Below are positions 1 through 5,489 of a DNA stretch of 5,489 bases, piece after piece (the stretch's first letter is position 1; every line of letters begins with the position of its first letter). The DNA lies in the sequence record MG563770.1, one strand, 5' to 3'. Position numbers and translations under genes: made by a program. The stretch comes from Escherichia phage EMCL318. The notes beneath the pieces are model-generated. The model was not told where the DNA came from, did no database searches, and worked only from the letters and a program-made list of their open reading frames with translations.

Positions 1-3
1 TGC

Positions 4-33
4 TTGACTAAAATCTATCTCTTCACTTAACAT
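4..33 (+). promoter_or_regulatory. Candidate sigma70 promoter for gene A (PA-like): -35 TTGACT at 4-9, 18-nt spacer, -10 TAACAT at 28-33
   Basis: Read directly from the sequence: 5/6 match to TTGACA and 4/6 match to TATAAT with the invariant A2 and T6 present. The position just upstream of A matches where phiX174-type phages place PA. The -10 overlaps the ATG at 32. Confidence 0.35.
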
Positions 34-61
34 GCCTCCAAACCAACGGAGGCTTTTCTAC

Positions 62-1732
62 ATGCAACAACACTTAACCGCTTCGGACTTCTACCGCAAA
101 CCAATAATCGACGCTATCAAACCTCTTGTCGAAACTGCTGGAATGTCTGTGCTTACTCAATCTCCTAACCTCCGTATCTGGAAACAGTGCAATACTCGCG
201 TAAAACTGCTGGAAGAAATTCTAAATCACTACACTAACGGTATTCGCCGTGATGATAATGGTGACTTCTTTCTCAACCCTGAATGCCAACTCGCTACTAC
301 AATTGCTTATCGTGCTCACAAAAAGGGCCATAACCCTCGCTTTAAACAATACCCTGAATCGTTCACTCTGGACGATATTATTACTGGCAAGCCAATCCCT
401 CAGACTGCTCCTTCTGAACTTCAACTTACTGATGAAATCGGTGAGGATTACCGCCTTACTGTACTCTCCATAATCGAAGAGTTAGACGAATGCTACAACG
501 TGCTCGGACAACTTGATATTAATAACACTATAGACCACAAACCTATCGGTAACGCCAAATGGGACTTAATGTATGAAAAACCTGTCTATAAACACTGGTA
601 TGAACTGGTATCAAAACGACCCCTTAAATCAATCAGAGAGGACTACAACTATGCAAAGGCTAAGGGTACTAAAGATGAGTGCTCGAAAATCCTTGAGGAA
701 TCCACCATGAAATCCCGGCGCGGCTTTACCGTACAAAGATTAATGAATGCTATGCGCACCGCTCACACTGATGGATGGTACGTTGTATTCGATACTCTTA
801 CCTTAGCTGATGACCGTATTAAGGACTTCTATGCTAACCCCAATGCTCTTCGTGACTATTTCCGTGATATTGGTCGTATGGTCCTCACTGCCGAGGGTCG
901 TTCGGTCCATGATTCATCTACGGACTGCTATCAGTACTTTTGTGTGCCTGAGTATGGCACCCAGCATGGCCGTTTACACTTTCACGCAGTGCATCTTATG
1001 CGCACACTTCCTTTGGGTTCTCTCGACCCTAACTTTGGTAAGCTGGTGCGTACTAATCGGCAAATAAATAGCTTGCAAAACACATGGCCTTATGGTTACT
1101 CTATGCCCATCGCAGTCCGGTACTCTCAAGATGCTTTCTCTCGCGCTGGATGGCTCTGGCCTGTTGATACAAAGGGTGAACCCCTTAAATCCACCTCGTA
1201 TATGGCTGTAGGCTTCTACGTTGCTAAATACGTTAATAAAAAATCTGATGTTGACATAGCCGCAAAAGGCTTAGGGAATCAAAAATGGAACGCTACATTA
1301 AAAACGCAGATGGCTCTTTTACCAAAGAAACTATTCCGAATCCGAATGAGCCGCAACTTCGGGATGAAACTACTCCCAATGACGACGCTCACCGCGGAGT
1401 GCTTAATCCAACTGACCCAAGTGGGTTACGACGTGACCCCGTTCAACAACATCTTGAAGCAGAACGCCAAGAAAGAGCTACGATTGAGGCTGGCAAAGCA
1501 ATCTGTAGCCGACGTTTTGGAGGCGCAACCTGTGACGACCAATCTGCTAAAATTCATGCGCAATTTGACCCGCAAAATCGGAGCGTCCAGCCTACAGAGT
1601 TTTATCGCTTCAATGACGCAGAAATTAGCAAGTACGGATATTTCTGATGAAACCAAAAACTACGTTACTAATGCAGGAATTGCTGTTGCTGACTTACGAC
1701 TTAAATCGAAGTGGACTGCTGGTGGAAAATGA
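62..1732 (+). CDS. A: Replication initiation protein A (HUH rolling-circle endonuclease), 556 aa from ATG 62; the ORF is open from an upstream ATG at 32 (566 aa)
   Basis: The translation matches recalled phiX174 protein A over long stretches ([17 protein letters not shown], MKSRRGF, [16 protein letters not shown], [90 protein letters not shown]). GGAGG at 48-52 sits 9 nt before ATG 62; no Shine-Dalgarno precedes ATG 32. The TGA stop at 1730-1732 overlaps the C start. Confidence 0.9.
509..538 (+). other. Viral (+) strand origin of rolling-circle replication: 30-nt conserved origin CAACTTGATATTAATAACACTATAGACCAC, expected nick between G515 and A516
   Basis: Exact 30/30 match to the recalled phiX174 origin 30-mer that protein A nicks. 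It lies inside gene A and encodes [12 protein letters not shown], as in phiX174 and G4. Confidence 0.85.
707..1732 (+). CDS. A*: A* protein: in-frame internal start within A, 341 aa, begins MKSRRGF
   Basis: ATG at 707 is in the A frame and corresponds to the phiX174 A* start (residue 173 of phiX A, MKSRRGF). GAGGA at 692-696 lies 10 nt upstream. The predicted length equals phiX174 A* (341 aa). Confidence 0.5.
1285..1647 (+). CDS. B: Internal scaffolding protein B, 120 aa, overprinted within gene A in a different frame
   Basis: The translation ([57 protein letters not shown]) matches recalled phiX174 protein B and has the same length. The TGA stop at 1645-1647 overlaps the K start (TGATG). 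Confidence 0.9.
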
Positions 1733-1817
1733 AGAACTTCAATCTCAACTTAAAGAACTCGAGGGCGTCTTACTTCGCAACCTTTCGCCATCATCTAAAC
1801 GTGGTGGCAAAGACTGA
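1647..1817 (+). CDS. K: Protein K, 56 aa, overlapping the 3' end of A and the 5' end of C in the third frame
   Basis: Not in the supplied ORF track (too short). My translation from ATG 1647 is [56 protein letters not shown] with TGA at 1815-1817. It matches recalled phiX174 K (…KQELLLLVYELNRSGLLAENEKI…CDLSPS…) and has the same 56-aa length. Confidence 0.8.
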
Positions 1818-1998
1818 CGCACTTGATGAGGAAAAATGGCTCAACATGATGGGCGCTCTTCTCAAGGACTGGTTCCGCTATGAACAACATTTCGTACATG
1901 GCAAAGAATCAATGCTTGACATTCTAAATGAACGTGGCCTATTATCCACCTTGCCAAATGGCTTAACTTGCAAAGGAATCAAAAATGAAAGCAAATGA
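1729..1998 (+). CDS. C: Protein C (ssDNA synthesis and packaging switch), 89 aa
   Basis: From ATG 1729 the translation is [40 protein letters not shown]…, matching recalled phiX174 C (SSYFATFRH…[13 protein letters not shown]…KDWFRYE.HFVHG). The ATG overlaps the A stop as ATGA (1729-1732). The ORF-track start at 1711 is a GTG extension. Confidence 0.85.
1916..1945 (+). promoter_or_regulatory. Candidate sigma70 promoter for the late genes (PD-like): -35 TTGACA at 1916-1921, 18-nt spacer, -10 TATTAT at 1940-1945
   Basis: 6/6 match at -35 and 5/6 at -10, read directly from the sequence. It lies inside gene C about 40 nt upstream of the D start, where phiX174-type phages place PD. Confidence 0.4.
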
Positions 1999-2446
1999 GA
2001 ACGCAGTAGCCTTTCAAACCGCTATTGCCTCCATCAAACTTATTCGGTCATCTTCTGTTCTTGACCTGACTGAGGACGATTTCGAATTCTTAACTCGTGA
2101 CCGTGTATGGATTGCAACTGACCGCTCCCGTGCTCGCCGCGCTATTGAGGCTTGCGTCTATGGAACACTGGACTTTGTCGGCTATCCTCGCTTTCCTGCT
2201 CCTATTGAGTTTATTGCTGCCGTCATTGCTTATTATGTTCATCCCGTTAACATTCAAACGGCATGTCTTATTATGGAAGGCGCTGAATTCACCGAAAACA
2301 TCATTAATGGTGTCGATGCCCCGGTTAAAGCCGCTGAACTCTTCGCGTTTACCCTGCGTGTACGCGCCGGAAACACTGAACTTATTACTTACGCAGAAAA
2401 CAACGCACGTGAAAAATTACGTGCTCAAGGAGTGATGGATGTCTAA
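1985..2446 (+). CDS. D: External scaffolding protein D, 153 aa
   Basis: Strong match to recalled phiX174 D (FQTAxASIKLI, VLDLTEDDF.FLT, VWIATDRSRARR, EACVYGTLDFVGYPRFPAP.EFIAAVIAYYVHPVNIQTACLIMEGAEFTENIINGV, PVKAAELFAFTLRVRAGNT). AAGGA at 1972-1976 lies 8 nt before the ATG. The start overlaps the C 3' end by 14 nt. Confidence 0.92.
   Translation: MKANENAVAFQTAIASIKLIRSSSVLDLTEDDFEFLTRDRVWIATDRSRARRAIEACVYGTLDFVGYPRFPAPIEFIAAVIAYYVHPVNIQTACLIMEGAEFTENIINGVDAPVKAAELFAFTLRVRAGNTELITYAENNAREKLRAQGVMDV
2160..2435 (+). CDS. E: Lysis protein E (MraY-inhibiting membrane protein), 91 aa, overprinted in the +1 frame of D
   Basis: From ATG 2160 the translation MEHWTLSAILAFLLLLSLLLPSLLIMFIPLTFKR…LPCVYA.ETL…LLTQK…VKNYV.KE matches recalled phiX174 E, including the N-terminal transmembrane segment with Pro21, and has the same 91-aa length. 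GAGG at 2147-2150 is upstream. The ORF-track start at 2097 is a GTG extension. Confidence 0.85.
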   Translation: MEHWTLSAILAFLLLLSLLLPSLLIMFIPLTFKRHVLLWKALNSPKTSLMVSMPRLKPLNSSRLPCVYAPETLNLLLTQKTTHVKNYVLKE

Positions 2447-2519
2447 AAAATCTATTCGCCGTTCTGGCGGTAAATCTAAAGGTGCTCGCCTCTGGTATGT
2501 TGGCGGCACACAATTCTAA
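2439..2519 (+). CDS. J: Small basic DNA-binding/packaging protein J, 26 aa (MSKKSIRRSGGKSKGARLWYVGGTQF)
   Basis: My translation from ATG 2439 to TAA 2517-2519. It has 7 Lys/Arg and no acidic residues. AAGGAG at 2427-2432 lies 6 nt upstream. It is short like the G4-type J rather than the 38-aa phiX174 J. It overlaps the D 3' end by 8 nt. Confidence 0.85.
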   Translation: MSKKSIRRSGGKSKGARLWYVGGTQF

Positions 2520-2526
2520 TCTTTAA

Positions 2527-2540
2527 GGGGCTTCGGCCCC
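2527..2540 (+). terminator. J-F intergenic stem-loop GGGGC-TTCG-GCCCC (5-bp GC stem, UUCG-type tetraloop), followed by TCTATTT
   Basis: Perfect inverted repeat read from the sequence. It sits at the position of the post-J terminator/mRNA-stabilising hairpin of phiX174-type phages, immediately before the F ribosome-binding site. Confidence 0.5.
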
Positions 2541-2558
2541 TCTATTTAAGGATACAAA

Positions 2559-3839
2559 ATGTCTAACGTACAAACTTCCGCAGAACGTATTCCGCATGAC
2601 CTCTCACATCTGGTCTTCGAAGCTGGTAAAATCGGTCGCCTTAAAACTATCTCTTGGACTCCTGTTGTCGCTGGTGATTCTTACGAAACTGAAATGGTAG
2701 GCGCTATTCGCCTCTCCCCACTCCGTCGTGGTCTGGCTGTCGACTCTCGCGTCGACGTCTTTACTTTCTACATTCCTCATCGTCATGTCTACGGTCAACA
2801 ATGGATTGACTTTATGAAGACTGGCGTTAACGCTACTCCTTTGGCTCCCGTGACTTGTGCTTCTGGCTGGGACTCTGCTGCCTATCTTGGCACTATCCCG
2901 TCAACTAACTTGAAGGTTCCTAAATTCCTTCATCAATCTTATCTGAACATTTACAACAACTACTTTAAGCCGCCGTGGTCTAATGACCTCACTTACGCTA
3001 ACCCATCTAATATGCCTGCTGAGGATTACAAATGGGGCGTTCGTGTCGCTAACTTAAAATCTATCTGGACCGCGCCCCTTCCTCCTGATTCATTAACTAA
3101 GCAGGATATGACCACTGGCGCTACTACTATCGATATTATGGGCCTACAAGCTGCCTATGCTAAACTCCATACTGAACAGGAACGTGACTACTTCATGACT
3201 CGCTACCGCGATATTATGAAAGACTTTGGCGGTCACACCTCTTATGACGGTGATAACCGTCCTCTGCTCCTGATGCGCTCTGAATTTTGGGCCTCTGGCT
3301 ATGACGTCGACGGTACTGACCAAACTTCATTGGGTCAGTTCTCTGGTCGCGTCCAACAAACTTTTAATCATAAAGTGCCTCGCTTCTATGTTCCTGAGCA
3401 TGGCGTAATTATGACTTTATCTGTTACTCGCTTCCCTCCTACTCATGAAATGGAAATGCACTATCTCGTCGGTAAGGAATCTCTAACTTACACTGATATT
3501 GCCTGTGACCCTGCTCTTATGGCTAACCTGCCTCCACGTGAAATTGAGGTAAAAGACCTCTTCCACTCTGCTGGCACTGGTAAATTCAAAATTGCCGAAG
3601 GTCAATGGTATCGTACTCAACCTGACCGCGTTGCCTTCCCTTATAACGCTCTCGACGGCTTCCCTTTCTACTCTAAACTGCCGTCTAATGATATTCTCGA
3701 ACGTGTACTTGTTCACACTGATAACTACGATGAAATATTCCAGTCTATGCAACTTGTACACTGGAATATGCAAACTAAATTTAACACTACTGTATATCGT
3801 CATATGCCTACTACTCGCGATGGCATCATGACTTCTTAA
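2559..3839 (+). CDS. F: Major capsid protein F, 426 aa
   Basis: Extensive match to recalled phiX174 F (MSN.QT.AER.PHDLSHL, GRL.TIS.TPV.AGDS, RLSPLRRGLA.DS.VD.FTFY.PHRHVYG.QWI.FMK.GVNATPL, YLNIYNNYFK.PW, IWTAPLPP, IDIMGLQAAYA.LHT.QERDYFM.RY, DNRPLL.MRS, WASGYDVDGTDQTSLGQFSGRVQQT, FKIAEGQWYR, VYR..PTTRD.IMTS). AAGGA at 2548-2552 lies 6 nt before the ATG. Confidence 0.95.
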   Translation: MSNVQTSAERIPHDLSHLVFEAGKIGRLKTISWTPVVAGDSYETEMVGAIRLSPLRRGLAVDSRVDVFTFYIPHRHVYGQQWIDFMKTGVNATPLAPVTCASGWDSAAYLGTIPSTNLKVPKFLHQSYLNIYNNYFKPPWSNDLTYANPSNMPAEDYKWGVRVANLKSIWTAPLPPDSLTKQDMTTGATTIDIMGLQAAYAKLHTEQERDYFMTRYRDIMKDFGGHTSYDGDNRPLLLMRSEFWASGYDVDGTDQTSLGQFSGRVQQTFNHKVPRFYVPEHGVIMTLSVTRFPPTHEMEMHYLVGKESLTYTDIACDPALMANLPPREIEVKDLFHSAGTGKFKIAEGQWYRTQPDRVAFPYNALDGFPFYSKLPSNDILERVLVHTDNYDEIFQSMQLVHWNMQTKFNTTVYRHMPTTRDGIMTS

Positions 3840-3848
3840 AACAAAACG

Positions 3849-3913
3849 TTGAACGGGTACAAATTTTAATTTGTGCCTGTTCAAGGTTGAACAAGCGAAG
3901 CGCGTTAGCTAAC
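3849..3913 (+). other. F-G intergenic structured region: long imperfect hairpin (3849-3884), GCGAAGC mini-hairpin motif (3895-3901) and 10-bp palindrome GTTAGCTAAC (3904-3913); candidate complementary-strand origin and/or post-F terminator
   Basis: Inverted repeats read directly from the sequence: arms TTGAACGGGTACAAATT and AATTTGTGCCTGTTCAA give 15 Watson-Crick pairs plus 2 G:T pairs. In G4-type phages the primase-dependent complementary-strand origin lies in the F-G intergenic region. Confidence 0.45.
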
Positions 3914-3931
3914 TTACTTAAGGAAATTCTC

Positions 3932-4465
3932 ATGTTTCAAACTTATCTCTCTAAACATAATTCTCCGTTAACTTCTCAGTCTATTACTGCTACAAAAACA
4001 CCTGCGGCTGCTGCTCCGATTATTTCTACACCGGAGCTTAGCCGCTCTACTATTTTCGCTGGCTTAACTCTGACTGCTGCCACTGCTCATTCTGGTGTCG
4101 CTCATGTCGTTCGTATTGACGAAACCAATCCTACTGACAATCAGGTTTTATCGGTCGCCGCTTCTTTATCTGGCGTACCGTCTGATGCTATTGCTATTGC
4201 TATTCGCTTTGAAGTCGCTGACGGTACCGTCCCTACTGCTCTCCCTGCTCTCTACTCTGCTTATCCGGTGGAATTCTTCACTTCTGGCGCTGCTCTGTCT
4301 TGTAAGGATGCCGTATCTATTCCGACGCATCCTGTTACTGCTGGTAATGATGTATATGCTGGTATTCTTATCTGGTCCAAATCTTGGTCCGCTGGTGTCG
4401 TCTCCGGCCTCTTATCTGTTAATCAGGTAAATCGTGAAACTACCGTACTCCAACCTCTTAAATAA
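3932..4465 (+). CDS. G: Major spike protein G, 177 aa
   Basis: From ATG 3932 the translation MFQTYLSKHNSP… with C-terminus …LSVNQVNRETTVLQPLK matches recalled phiX174 G (MFQTFISRHNS…LVSLNQVIKEI.CLQPLK), and the central region keeps RFE, VPT.LP.AY and GN.VY.G motifs. AAGGA at 3920-3924 lies 7 nt upstream. The ORF-track start at 3887 is a TTG extension. Confidence 0.9.
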   Translation: MFQTYLSKHNSPLTSQSITATKTPAAAAPIISTPELSRSTIFAGLTLTAATAHSGVAHVVRIDETNPTDNQVLSVAASLSGVPSDAIAIAIRFEVADGTVPTALPALYSAYPVEFFTSGAALSCKDAVSIPTHPVTAGNDVYAGILIWSKSWSAGVVSGLLSVNQVNRETTVLQPLK

Positions 4466-4475
4466 GGTCTAATCT

Positions 4476-5489
4476 ATGTTCGGTGCAATCGCTGGCGGTA
4501 TCGCCTCCTCTCTCGCTGGTGGACTCCTGAACAAAGCATTCGGGGGCGGTTCTTCCGCTCCCCAATCTGGCGTTCAAGGTAATGTCCTCGCTACTGACAA
4601 TAATGTAATCGGTGCTAATGATGCTGGTATCAAATCCGCTATTCAGGGTTCTAATCCTCCCAATAGTCAACAAGCTGCTCCCAATGCTATATCGGGCGTT
4701 CTTGCCGATACTGGCAAAGACGCCCTATCTTCAATCACTGGCGCTGGCGTTAATAAACTTATGGAAAAAGTCGGGCTATCTAAAGATGCTGCTGCTAAAG
4801 GTAAGGATACAAAAGATTATCTTGCTTCTGCGTTCCCCGAACTCAACCCGTGGGAACGTGCTGGCGCTGGTGCTTCTTCTGCTGGAATGGTTGATGCGGG
4901 ATTCCAAAACCAAAAGGAATTAACTCGCATGCAGCTTGACAATCAAAAAGAAATCGCTAAGATGCAAAACGACACTCAAAAGGATATCGCTGGTATCCAG
5001 TCTCTTACTTCTCGGCAAAATACTAAGGACTCTGTGTATGCTCAAAACGAAATGCTCCAATACAACCAAAAAGAATCTATGTCACGTGTTGGCGCTATTC
5101 TCGAAAACACAAGCCTCACCAAACAACAACAAACTTCTGAAATTATGCGGCAAATGCTTACTCAAGCTCAGACCGCAGGTCAACATTTTACAAATGACCA
5201 AATCCAAGAACTTACTCGAAAGGTCGGCGCTGATATTGATGCTGTTCGTGCTAACACTGAACGTACACATGTAGAAACGGACCGCTCTAAGCAGGAGGTC
5301 CAAAACTCTCGTTACGCTTCCTCACAAGTCGGTAAAACCGCTAAGGATGTATCAAATGTCATTAGTGACGCATCTTCTGGTATTGTTGATTATTTTCGTG
5401 GCGTTGATAAAGCTGTCGCGGATACTTGGAACAATTATTTCAAAGATGGCAAATCGGATGGGATAAGCTCAAATCATCGTACCAAATAA
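4476..5489 (+). CDS. H: Minor spike / DNA pilot protein H, 337 aa
   Basis: Strong match to recalled phiX174 H ([151 protein letters not shown]). AAGG at 4464-4467 lies 8 nt upstream. The TAA stop is the last 3 nt of the window. Confidence 0.93.

What the first reader, a model, noticed from the sequence alone, without database searches (positions are those of the whole stretch)
2160..2435. Lysis gene E overprinted in D with conserved Pro21 transmembrane segment
The +1 frame of D encodes a 91-aa protein with N-terminus MEHWTLSAILAFLLLLSLLLPSLLIMFIP. Pro21 within the transmembrane helix is the residue known to be critical for phiX174 E inhibition of MraY. This is the single-gene lysis system of the phage; the true start is ATG 2160, not the GTG at 2097 reported by the ORF track.
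Basis: partly seen in the sequence, partly recalled or inferred. Interest (0 to 1): 0.45.

Follow-up and report, generated by a model that had tools for sequence, protein, structure and literature searches.

The report
Known microvirus lysis gene E
This is the well-known lysis gene E of a G4-like microvirus, written in a second reading frame inside scaffolding gene D; the protein is identical to one already annotated in coliphage WA14, so the finding is correct but ordinary.

Summary
Window 2160-2435 (+) is a 91-codon ATG ORF in the +1 frame of gene D (1985-2446). It starts MEHWTLSAILAFLLLLSLLLPSLLIMFIP, with Pro at residue 21.

The window is a complete G4-like microvirus genome, 98.5% identical to coliphage WA14. 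The E protein is 100% identical to WA14 gpE, which is annotated "cell lysis protein". It passes the Pfam Microvir_lysis threshold, matches PHROG 1472 end to end, and matches the phiX174 and ID21 E chains of the solved MraY-E-SlyD complex (8G02, 8G01).

Residues 10-16, 18 and 20-29, including Pro21, are invariant in 15 E sequences from three genera. D's third codon positions vary at only 32% of sites over E residues 1-35, against 93% outside the overlap. That shows selection on the E frame.

ATG 2160 is the start, not GTG 2097. The ATG and a GAGG nine bases upstream are invariant. The GTG is missing in five relatives, and NC41 has a stop four codons upstream of the ATG.

Lysis, MraY inhibition and SlyD dependence are inferred from homologues, not shown here. 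One caveat: residue 3 is His, the same residue as the phiX174 slyD-bypass allele R3H.

Verdict: already known, low interest.

The parts
2160..2435 (+). Gene E (lysis protein), 91 codons plus TGA stop, in the +1 frame of gene D
   Evidence: Translation. 100% identical to WA14 gpE AAZ49385.1, annotated at the equivalent 2157-2432. Pfam PF04517, 60.9 bits against a cut-off of 25. PHROG 1472 'lysis', E = 7.9e-46, covering 1-91 of 91. PDB 8G02_B E = 4.9e-33 and 8G01_B E = 5.1e-25.
2147..2150 (+). Shine-Dalgarno-like GAGG, with 9 nt between it and ATG 2160
   Evidence: GAGGC(T/C)TG(C/T)GT(N)T-ATG is present upstream of E in all 11 genomes compared. No comparable purine-rich motif lies in the 22 nt upstream of GTG 2097 (GACGATTTCGAATTCTTAACTC).
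2181..2249 (+). Coding region for the single N-terminal transmembrane helix (about residues 8-30, AILAFLLLLSLLLPSLLIMFIPL)
   Evidence: Kyte-Doolittle 19-residue mean peaks at 2.79 for residues 9-28. The summed Hessa scale is negative for windows 4-22 to 14-32. The AF2 model has a helix at 3-43, with block-mean pLDDT 83-92 over residues 1-40. Residues 10-16, 18 and 20-29 are invariant in 15 E sequences.
2220..2222 (+). Pro21 codon (CCG)
   Evidence: Read directly from the sequence. Invariant in 15 E sequences from Sinsheimervirus, Gequatrovirus and Alphatrevirus. P21 is required for lysis in phiX174 E and ID52 E according to PMC11126076.
2265..2432 (+). Basic, variable C-terminal (cytoplasmic) domain of E, residues 36-91
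   Evidence: Residues 31-91 hold 10 K/R against 2 D/E, which implies an N-out/C-in topology by the positive-inside rule. The Pfam Microvir_lysis C-terminal model matches residues 35-73. Identity to other E proteins in this part is only 45-73% outside the WA14/ID18 cluster.
1985..2446 (+). Gene D (external scaffolding protein), the host frame that E overprints
   Evidence: Pfam PF02925 gpD, E = 7.2e-82. WA14 annotates it at the equivalent 1982-2443.
1916..1945 (+). Sigma-70-type promoter-like site inside gene C, a candidate for the PD promoter that drives the D/E transcript
   Evidence: TTGACA-18-TATTAT, 11 of 12 matches. Equating it with phiX174 PD is an inference from its position about 40 nt upstream of D. 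No test was done.

Best explanation
Window 2160-2435 is gene E, the single-gene lysis ('protein antibiotic') gene of a G4-like Bullavirinae microvirus, WA14/EMCL318 type. It is translated from ATG 2160, in the +1 frame of scaffolding gene D, on the D mRNA.

The 91-aa product is a small membrane protein. It has a short periplasmic N-terminus, one transmembrane helix (about residues 8-30) bent at the invariant Pro21, and a basic cytoplasmic tail.

By homology, the transmembrane helix binds the host lipid I synthase MraY in the groove beside its helix 9 and blocks its activity. The host chaperone SlyD binds and stabilises the cytoplasmic tail. Peptidoglycan precursor synthesis then stops and growing cells burst, releasing the phage.

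Shown here: the ORF, its frame, its start, its homology, the transmembrane segment and purifying selection on the E frame. Inferred from homologues: lysis, the MraY target, the topology and SlyD involvement.
For: Genome context:
- The window is a whole microvirus genome, 98.5% identical to WA14. It has the same A, A*, B, K, C, D, E, J, F, G and H gene order.

Homology:
- The E protein is 100% identical to WA14 gpE 'cell lysis protein'.
- There are no nucleotide differences across the 276-nt overlap, against 80 substitutions genome-wide.
- Pfam PF04517 scores 60.9 bits against a cut-off of 25. PHROG 1472 (lysis) gives E = 7.9e-46 over the full length.
- The phiX174 E and ID21 E chains of the solved MraY-E-SlyD complexes match at 4.9e-33 and 5.1e-25. 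Residues 1-32 differ from ID21 E at only two positions.

Conservation:
- 22 of the first 29 positions are invariant across 15 E proteins of three genera, including W4, F12 and P21.
- Variable sites at D's third codon position (which is E's second position): 93% in the non-overlapping part of D, 32% over E residues 1-35, and 82% over E residues 36-91.
- The 2160-2264 segment is 92-94% identical in nucleotides to G4, ID2 and phiX174, while the whole genes compared are 60-89% identical.

Start codon:
- The ATG and the GAGG are invariant. The GTG at -63 is absent in phiX174, G4, WA3, WA6 and NC41. NC41 has an in-frame TAG four codons upstream of the ATG.

Transmembrane helix and topology:
-.

Mechanism from the literature:
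- PMC12506998, PMC10914600, PMC11812184, PMC11126076, PMC3324380.
Against: Nothing in the sequence argues against it. The limits are as follows.
- No functional assay exists for this exact protein in anything I could read.
[quoted passage not shown] That proposed contact is therefore not conserved.
- The C-terminal tail is only 73% identical to phiX174 E and 50% identical to G4 E. SlyD binding is therefore extrapolated.
- Hydrophobicity alone is weak evidence in this genome.
Confidence: 0.95

Rival explanations
1. The real product is the 112-aa protein started at GTG 2097, as the mechanical ORF list shows, or that longer protein is made alongside the 91-aa form.
For: The frame is open for 22 codons upstream of ATG 2160 in 10 of the 11 genomes compared. 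GTG 2097 exists in the window, WA14, ID18, ID2, ID204 and St-1.
Against: - The GTG is absent in phiX174, G4, WA3, WA6 and NC41.
- NC41 has a TAG stop four codons before the ATG.
- There is no Shine-Dalgarno-like motif upstream of 2097, whereas GAGG precedes the invariant ATG.
- All public annotations start E at the ATG.
- PHROG 1472 aligns positions 1-91 of 91 to the ATG-started protein.
- The upstream open frame is likely a by-product of the conserved D sequence.
Confidence: 0.03
2. E is a genuine lysis protein but kills by forming an oligomeric transmembrane tunnel that fuses the inner and outer membranes (the older 'bacterial ghost' model), not by inhibiting MraY.
For: The tunnel model is still used in the bacterial-ghost literature, and tunnels are seen by electron microscopy after E expression (PMC11126076; PMC8622331 abstract).
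Against: - Solved MraY-E-SlyD complexes exist for two homologues that match this protein strongly.
- E is described as occupying the MraY active site (PMC12506998).
- mraY overexpression abolished lysis by the G4-like ID52 E.
- mraY F288L confers resistance to E (PMC11812184).
- The holes can be explained as the site of rupture after wall synthesis stops. That last point is an inference.
Confidence: 0.03
3. The ORF is a chance out-of-frame ORF with a leucine-rich stretch, produced by the base composition of gene D, and has no function in this phage.
For: Several other out-of-frame segments of at least 60 codons in the window are also hydrophobic, with 19-residue Kyte-Doolittle means of 2.0-2.6.
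Against: - D's third-position variability falls from 93% to 32% exactly over E residues 1-35.
- The start codon, the GAGG and 22 of the first 29 residues are invariant across three genera.
- Family-level and structure-level matches are strong.
Confidence: 0.01

Closest known systems
gpE of coliphage WA14 (AAZ49385.1, DQ079909) and of ID18 (YP_512794.1, NC_007856)
   Same: WA14 gpE is identical at all 91 residues, and the 276-nt gene is identical in nucleotides. It has the same position inside D and the same stop 3 nt before the J start. ID18 gpE is 82/91 identical.
   Different: Nothing differs within E. The two bases at -5 and -2 relative to the ATG differ from WA14 (C in the window, T in WA14, at 2155 and 2158; both silent in D). 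The genome carries 80 substitutions and a 3-nt indel elsewhere.
phiX174 lysis protein E (AAA32576.1; PDB 8G02 chain B)
   Same: Both are 91 aa and sit in the +1 frame of D with the stop inside D. The core LAFLLLLSLLLPSLLIMFIP, including Pro21, is identical. Both have a basic C-terminal tail. Identity is 28/35 in residues 1-35 and 41/56 in residues 36-91.
   Different: Residues 2-3 and 7-9 differ (EH and SAI here; VR and WDT in phiX174). The RWxxW motif is therefore absent, and residue 3 is His, as in the phiX174 slyD-bypass mutant R3H.
G4 E (AAL51014.1) and ID21 E (PDB 8G01 chain B)
   Same: Same N-terminal signature, M(E/G)HWTLS(A/G)ILAFLLLLSL. ID21 E differs at only 2 of the first 32 residues.
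   Different: G4 E is 96 aa, runs past the end of D, has Phe19, and shares only 28/56 residues in the tail. The tail coding region here is closer in nucleotides to phiX174 (85.4%) than to G4 (77.8%).
Other single-gene lysis proteins of small phages (Qbeta A2 targeting MurA, phage M LysM targeting MurJ, MS2 L)
   Same: The strategy is the same: one small phage protein blocks a step of peptidoglycan precursor synthesis or export instead of degrading the wall (PMC12506998).
   Different: They are unrelated in sequence, have different targets and belong to RNA phages. No homology test was needed or run.

Membership tests
Microvirus lysis protein E (Pfam PF04517 / PHROG 1472) | Significant sequence match to the family models and to experimentally characterised members | tested here: met
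   PF04517 scores 60.9 bits against a curated cut-off of 25. PHROG 1472 gives E = 7.9e-46 over positions 1-91 of 91. phiX174 E (8G02_B) matches at 4.9e-33 and ID21 E (8G01_B) at 5.1e-25. The protein is 100% identical to annotated WA14 gpE.
Microvirus lysis protein E (Pfam PF04517 / PHROG 1472) | Encoded in the +1 frame inside external scaffolding gene D of a Bullavirinae genome | tested here: met
   (2160-1985) mod 3 = 1. D is confirmed by Pfam gpD at 7.2e-82. The gene order is that of G4 and WA14.
Microvirus lysis protein E (Pfam PF04517 / PHROG 1472) | Single N-terminal transmembrane helix with the conserved core LAFLLLLSLLLPSLLIMFIP, including Pro21 | tested here: met
   The core is present at residues 10-29 with Pro at 21. 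Residues 10-16, 18 and 20-29 are invariant in 15 sequences. The Kyte-Doolittle peak is 2.79. The AF2 model has a helix at 3-43.
Microvirus lysis protein E (Pfam PF04517 / PHROG 1472) | Basic C-terminal tail consistent with N-out/C-in topology | tested here: met
   All 10 K/R residues lie C-terminal of the helix, against 2 D/E in residues 31-91. The topology itself is inferred.
Microvirus lysis protein E (Pfam PF04517 / PHROG 1472) | Evidence that the overprinted frame is under selection and is not a by-product of D | tested here: met
   Variable sites at D's third codon position are 32% over E residues 1-35, 93% outside the overlap and 82% over the E tail. The ATG and the GAGG are invariant.
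Microvirus lysis protein E (Pfam PF04517 / PHROG 1472) | Causes host lysis by inhibiting MraY | not testable with these tools
   Known for phiX174 E and supported for ID52 E (PMC12506998; PMC11126076). For this protein it rests on homology only.
Microvirus lysis protein E (Pfam PF04517 / PHROG 1472) | Requires the host chaperone SlyD for stability or activity (a phiX174 property; not necessarily family-wide) | not testable with these tools
   phiX174 needs slyD (PMC3324380). This E carries His3, the same residue as the bypass allele R3H. ID52 E was reported to lyse a slyD knockout when expressed from a plasmid.

The most novel reading that the evidence does not exclude
G4-like E proteins, including this one, carry His at residue 3. 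In phiX174 that residue (R3H, an 'Epos' allele) lets the phage lyse slyD-defective hosts. This E might therefore be naturally less dependent on SlyD, or independent of it. If so, SlyD dependence would be a phiX174-lineage peculiarity and not a family trait. The evidence here does not exclude this and does not test it. The Epos effect is attributed to faster E synthesis, which depends on nucleotide context.
Probability: 0.25. Interest if true: 0.25.

Novelty: already known. Interest (0 to 1): 0.08.

Why it matters
It matters mainly as a correct annotation. E is the phage's only lysis gene and a textbook case of overprinting, and automatic gene callers often miss it. The GR8 record (PQ551090), for example, has an intact 91-aa E ORF with no annotation. 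The mechanical ORF list here also starts E 21 codons too early.

E proteins are of applied interest as MraY-targeting 'protein antibiotics' and for making bacterial ghosts. This particular sequence adds nothing new, because the identical protein has been in GenBank since the WA14 deposit.

Tried and rejected
- Foldseek of the single-sequence AF2 model against the PDB gave no hits. That is expected for one long helix plus a low-confidence tail. The sequence search had already found 8G01 and 8G02.
- The Rfam gathering scan of the whole window found nothing.
- I could not read Orta et al. 2023 (Science; PMC12747129) or Tanaka & Clemons 2012 (PMC3429702). Neither is held. Residue-level contacts of E with MraY and SlyD are therefore taken only from papers that cite them.
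- I considered ORF length and hydrophobicity as evidence on their own and rejected them, because other non-coding frames in this window reach similar values.
- I considered the GTG 2097 start and rejected it.
- I considered recombination as the reason the E tail region is closer to phiX174 than to G4, but did not pursue it. ID2 is equally close, so divergence specific to the G4 lineage is the simpler reading.
- Identity to an annotated protein made them unnecessary.
- The exact record of the window is not in the phage collection; the best match is 98.5%. The window's length of 5,489 nt and its closeness to WA14 fit the published description of phage EMCL318, MG563770 (PMC6316680). My per-gene counts of amino-acid changes differ slightly from that paper: A 2, F 4 and G 2, against 1, 3 and 1.

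Full report
**What the window is**

The 5,489-nt window is a complete genome of a G4-like microvirus (Microviridae, Bullavirinae, Gequatrovirus).
- It aligns end to end with coliphage WA14 (DQ079909) at 98.5% identity and with ID18 at 97.5%.
- A direct alignment gives 80 substitutions and one 3-nt indel at window 12-14.
- All eleven WA14 genes (A, A*, B, K, C, D, E, J, F, G, H) are intact at WA14 coordinates plus 3.
- Length and relationship fit the published description of phage EMCL318: 5,489 bases, closest to WA14, E identical (PMC6316680). That record is not in the collection I could search, and my per-gene change counts differ slightly from the paper.

**Checking the observation**

- Window 2160-2435 is ATG...TGA, 91 codons. 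The translation is MEHWTLSAILAFLLLLSLLLPSLLIMFIPLTFKRHV...KNYVLKE.
- D runs from 1985 to 2446 (Pfam gpD, E = 7.2e-82). E starts 175 nt into D, so it is in the +1 frame.
- Codon 21 (CCG, 2220-2222) is proline.

Every sequence-level statement is therefore correct.

**Is it more than chance?**

Length and hydrophobicity are not enough in this genome. There are 26 stop-to-stop segments of at least 60 codons. Five other out-of-frame segments reach 19-residue Kyte-Doolittle means of 2.07-2.56, compared with 2.79 for E.

The real evidence is of three kinds.
- *Homology.* The protein is 100% identical to WA14 gpE, annotated as cell lysis protein. It passes Pfam Microvir_lysis at 60.9 bits against a cut-off of 25 and matches PHROG 1472 (lysis) over its full length at 7.9e-46. 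It also matches the E chains of the solved MraY-E-SlyD complexes: phiX174 E (8G02_B) at 4.9e-33 and ID21 E (8G01_B) at 5.1e-25.
- *Residue conservation.* I aligned 15 E sequences from Sinsheimervirus, Gequatrovirus and Alphatrevirus. Positions 1, 4-6, 10-16, 18 and 20-29 are invariant, including Pro21. The tail is much more variable.
- *Constraint on D's silent sites.* D's third codon position is E's second position, so any silent change in D alters E. The fraction of variable D third positions is 93% in D codons 1-58 (no overlap). It falls to 32% in the codons that overlap E residues 1-35, and is 82% over E residues 36-91. In line with this, 2160-2264 is 92-94% identical in nucleotides to G4, ID2 and phiX174, while the whole genes compared are 60-89% identical.

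This is the signature of purifying selection on the E transmembrane domain on top of selection on D.

**Start codon**

- ATG 2160 and a GAGG with a nine-base spacer (2147-2150) are present in all 11 genomes examined.
- The GTG at -63 is missing in phiX174, G4, WA3, WA6 and NC41. NC41 has an in-frame TAG four codons upstream of the ATG.
- No Shine-Dalgarno-like motif precedes 2097.
- All deposited annotations start E at the ATG.

**Anatomy of the protein**

- The hydropathy peak covers residues 9-28. The summed Hessa scale is negative for 19-residue windows from 4-22 to 14-32.
- All ten Lys/Arg residues lie C-terminal of this segment, against two acidic residues there. By the positive-inside rule this predicts a periplasmic N-terminus and a cytoplasmic tail. 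The topology is an inference.
- A single-sequence AlphaFold2 model gives one helix over residues 3-43, with block-mean pLDDT 83-92 over residues 1-40, and a low-confidence tail.

**How it most likely works**

This section rests on homologues, not on anything shown here.
- E of phiX174 is the phage's only lysis protein, and it inhibits MraY, the lipid I synthase. [quoted passage not shown]
- The bent transmembrane helix of E lies in the hydrophobic groove next to MraY helix 9, and mraY F288L confers resistance (PMC11812184).
- P21 is required for phiX174 E function (Witte et al. 1997, cited in PMC11126076). P21A abolishes lysis by the G4-like ID52 E, and mraY overexpression blocks that lysis.
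- phiX174 needs host slyD. Mutations R3H and L19F in E bypass that need by raising E synthesis (PMC4825663; PMC3324380).

Residues 1-32 of this protein differ from the structurally characterised ID21 E at only two positions. The same mode of MraY binding is therefore very likely.

**Differences worth recording**

- This E has His at residue 3 and Ser at residue 7. [quoted passage not shown]
- Residue 3 is the same as in the phiX174 slyD-bypass allele R3H. G4 E has both His3 and Phe19.
- Whether G4-like E proteins depend on SlyD less than phiX174 E does is open. One paper reports ID52 E lysing a slyD knockout when expressed from a plasmid, but overexpression could mask a dependence.

**Surroundings**

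- A strong sigma-70-like site, TTGACA-18-TATTAT, lies at 1916-1945 inside gene C, about 40 nt upstream of D. Its position suggests the D promoter.
- E's TGA (2433-2435) is followed by the J start at 2439, and D ends at 2446. All three frames are therefore in use within 14 nt.
- A stable GGGGC-UUCG-GCCCC hairpin sits between J and F.
- No Rfam family is present.
- Minus-strand ORFs under E (2090-2257 and 2254-2376) are mechanical. Every annotated gene in the related records examined lies on the plus strand.

**Comparison and verdict**

This is a member of the microvirus E family. Every sequence-testable defining feature was met. The functional features (lysis, MraY, SlyD) could not be tested with these tools. 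The exact protein and the exact 276-nt gene are already deposited and annotated, so nothing here is new.

Noticed in passing
window 2166-2168 and 2178-2180 (E codons 3 and 7): E has His3 and Ser7. His3 is the same residue as the phiX174 slyD-bypass ('Epos') allele R3H. [quoted passage not shown] G4 E has both His3 and Phe19, the two Epos residues.
   Followed up: partly
window 2265-2435: The 3' part of D/E (the E tail) is closer in nucleotides to phiX174 (85.4%) and ID2 (84.8%) than to G4 (77.8%). For every other gene compared, phiX174 (60-75%) is more distant than G4 (67-87%). The cause is either G4-lineage-specific divergence of this segment or an old exchange.
   Followed up: partly
window 1-5489; indel at 12-14: The window is a complete circular microvirus genome, with 80 substitutions and a 3-nt AAT insertion relative to WA14. 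Its length and relationships fit the published phage EMCL318 (MG563770), which is not in the searchable phage collection. My per-gene amino-acid change counts (A 2, C 1, D 2, F 4, G 2, H 1) differ slightly from the paper's.
   Followed up: partly
window 2433-2446: D in this clade ends ...GVMDV, two residues longer than in phiX174 and G4. D therefore overlaps the J start (2439) by 8 nt, and E stops at 2433-2435. All three forward frames are coding within 14 nt.
   Followed up: no
window 2527-2540: The J-F intergenic region holds a GGGGC-UUCG-GCCCC hairpin inside a longer stem (-15.6 kcal/mol, z = -3.5, and none of 200 shuffles folds as well). It may be a transcription attenuator or an mRNA-stabilising hairpin. 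The simple terminator scan did not flag it.
   Followed up: partly
window 1916-1945 and 2247-2274: There is a near-consensus promoter-like site (11/12) inside gene C upstream of D. A second promoter-like site (TTAACA-16-TATTAT, 10/12) lies inside the D/E overlap, just after the E transmembrane coding region.
   Followed up: no
L011 (PQ551090.1, phage GR8) 4845-5120: This phiX174-like record annotates D but not E, although an intact 91-aa E ORF with the conserved N-terminus is present. It is an example of E being missed by automated annotation.
   Followed up: partly
window 32, 1711 and 3887 (ORF-list starts of A, C and G): The mechanical ORF list starts A at 32, C at GTG 1711 and G at TTG 3887. 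The WA14 annotation corresponds to ATG 62, ATG 1729 and ATG 3932. This is the same over-extension artefact as for E.
   Followed up: partly
window 5275-5466, 3553-3831 and 4074-4430 (+ strand, out-of-frame with H, F and G): Other out-of-frame open segments contain leucine-rich stretches with 19-residue hydropathy of 2.15-2.56. Nothing known is annotated there in related records. I treated them as composition by-products but did not test their conservation.
   Followed up: no
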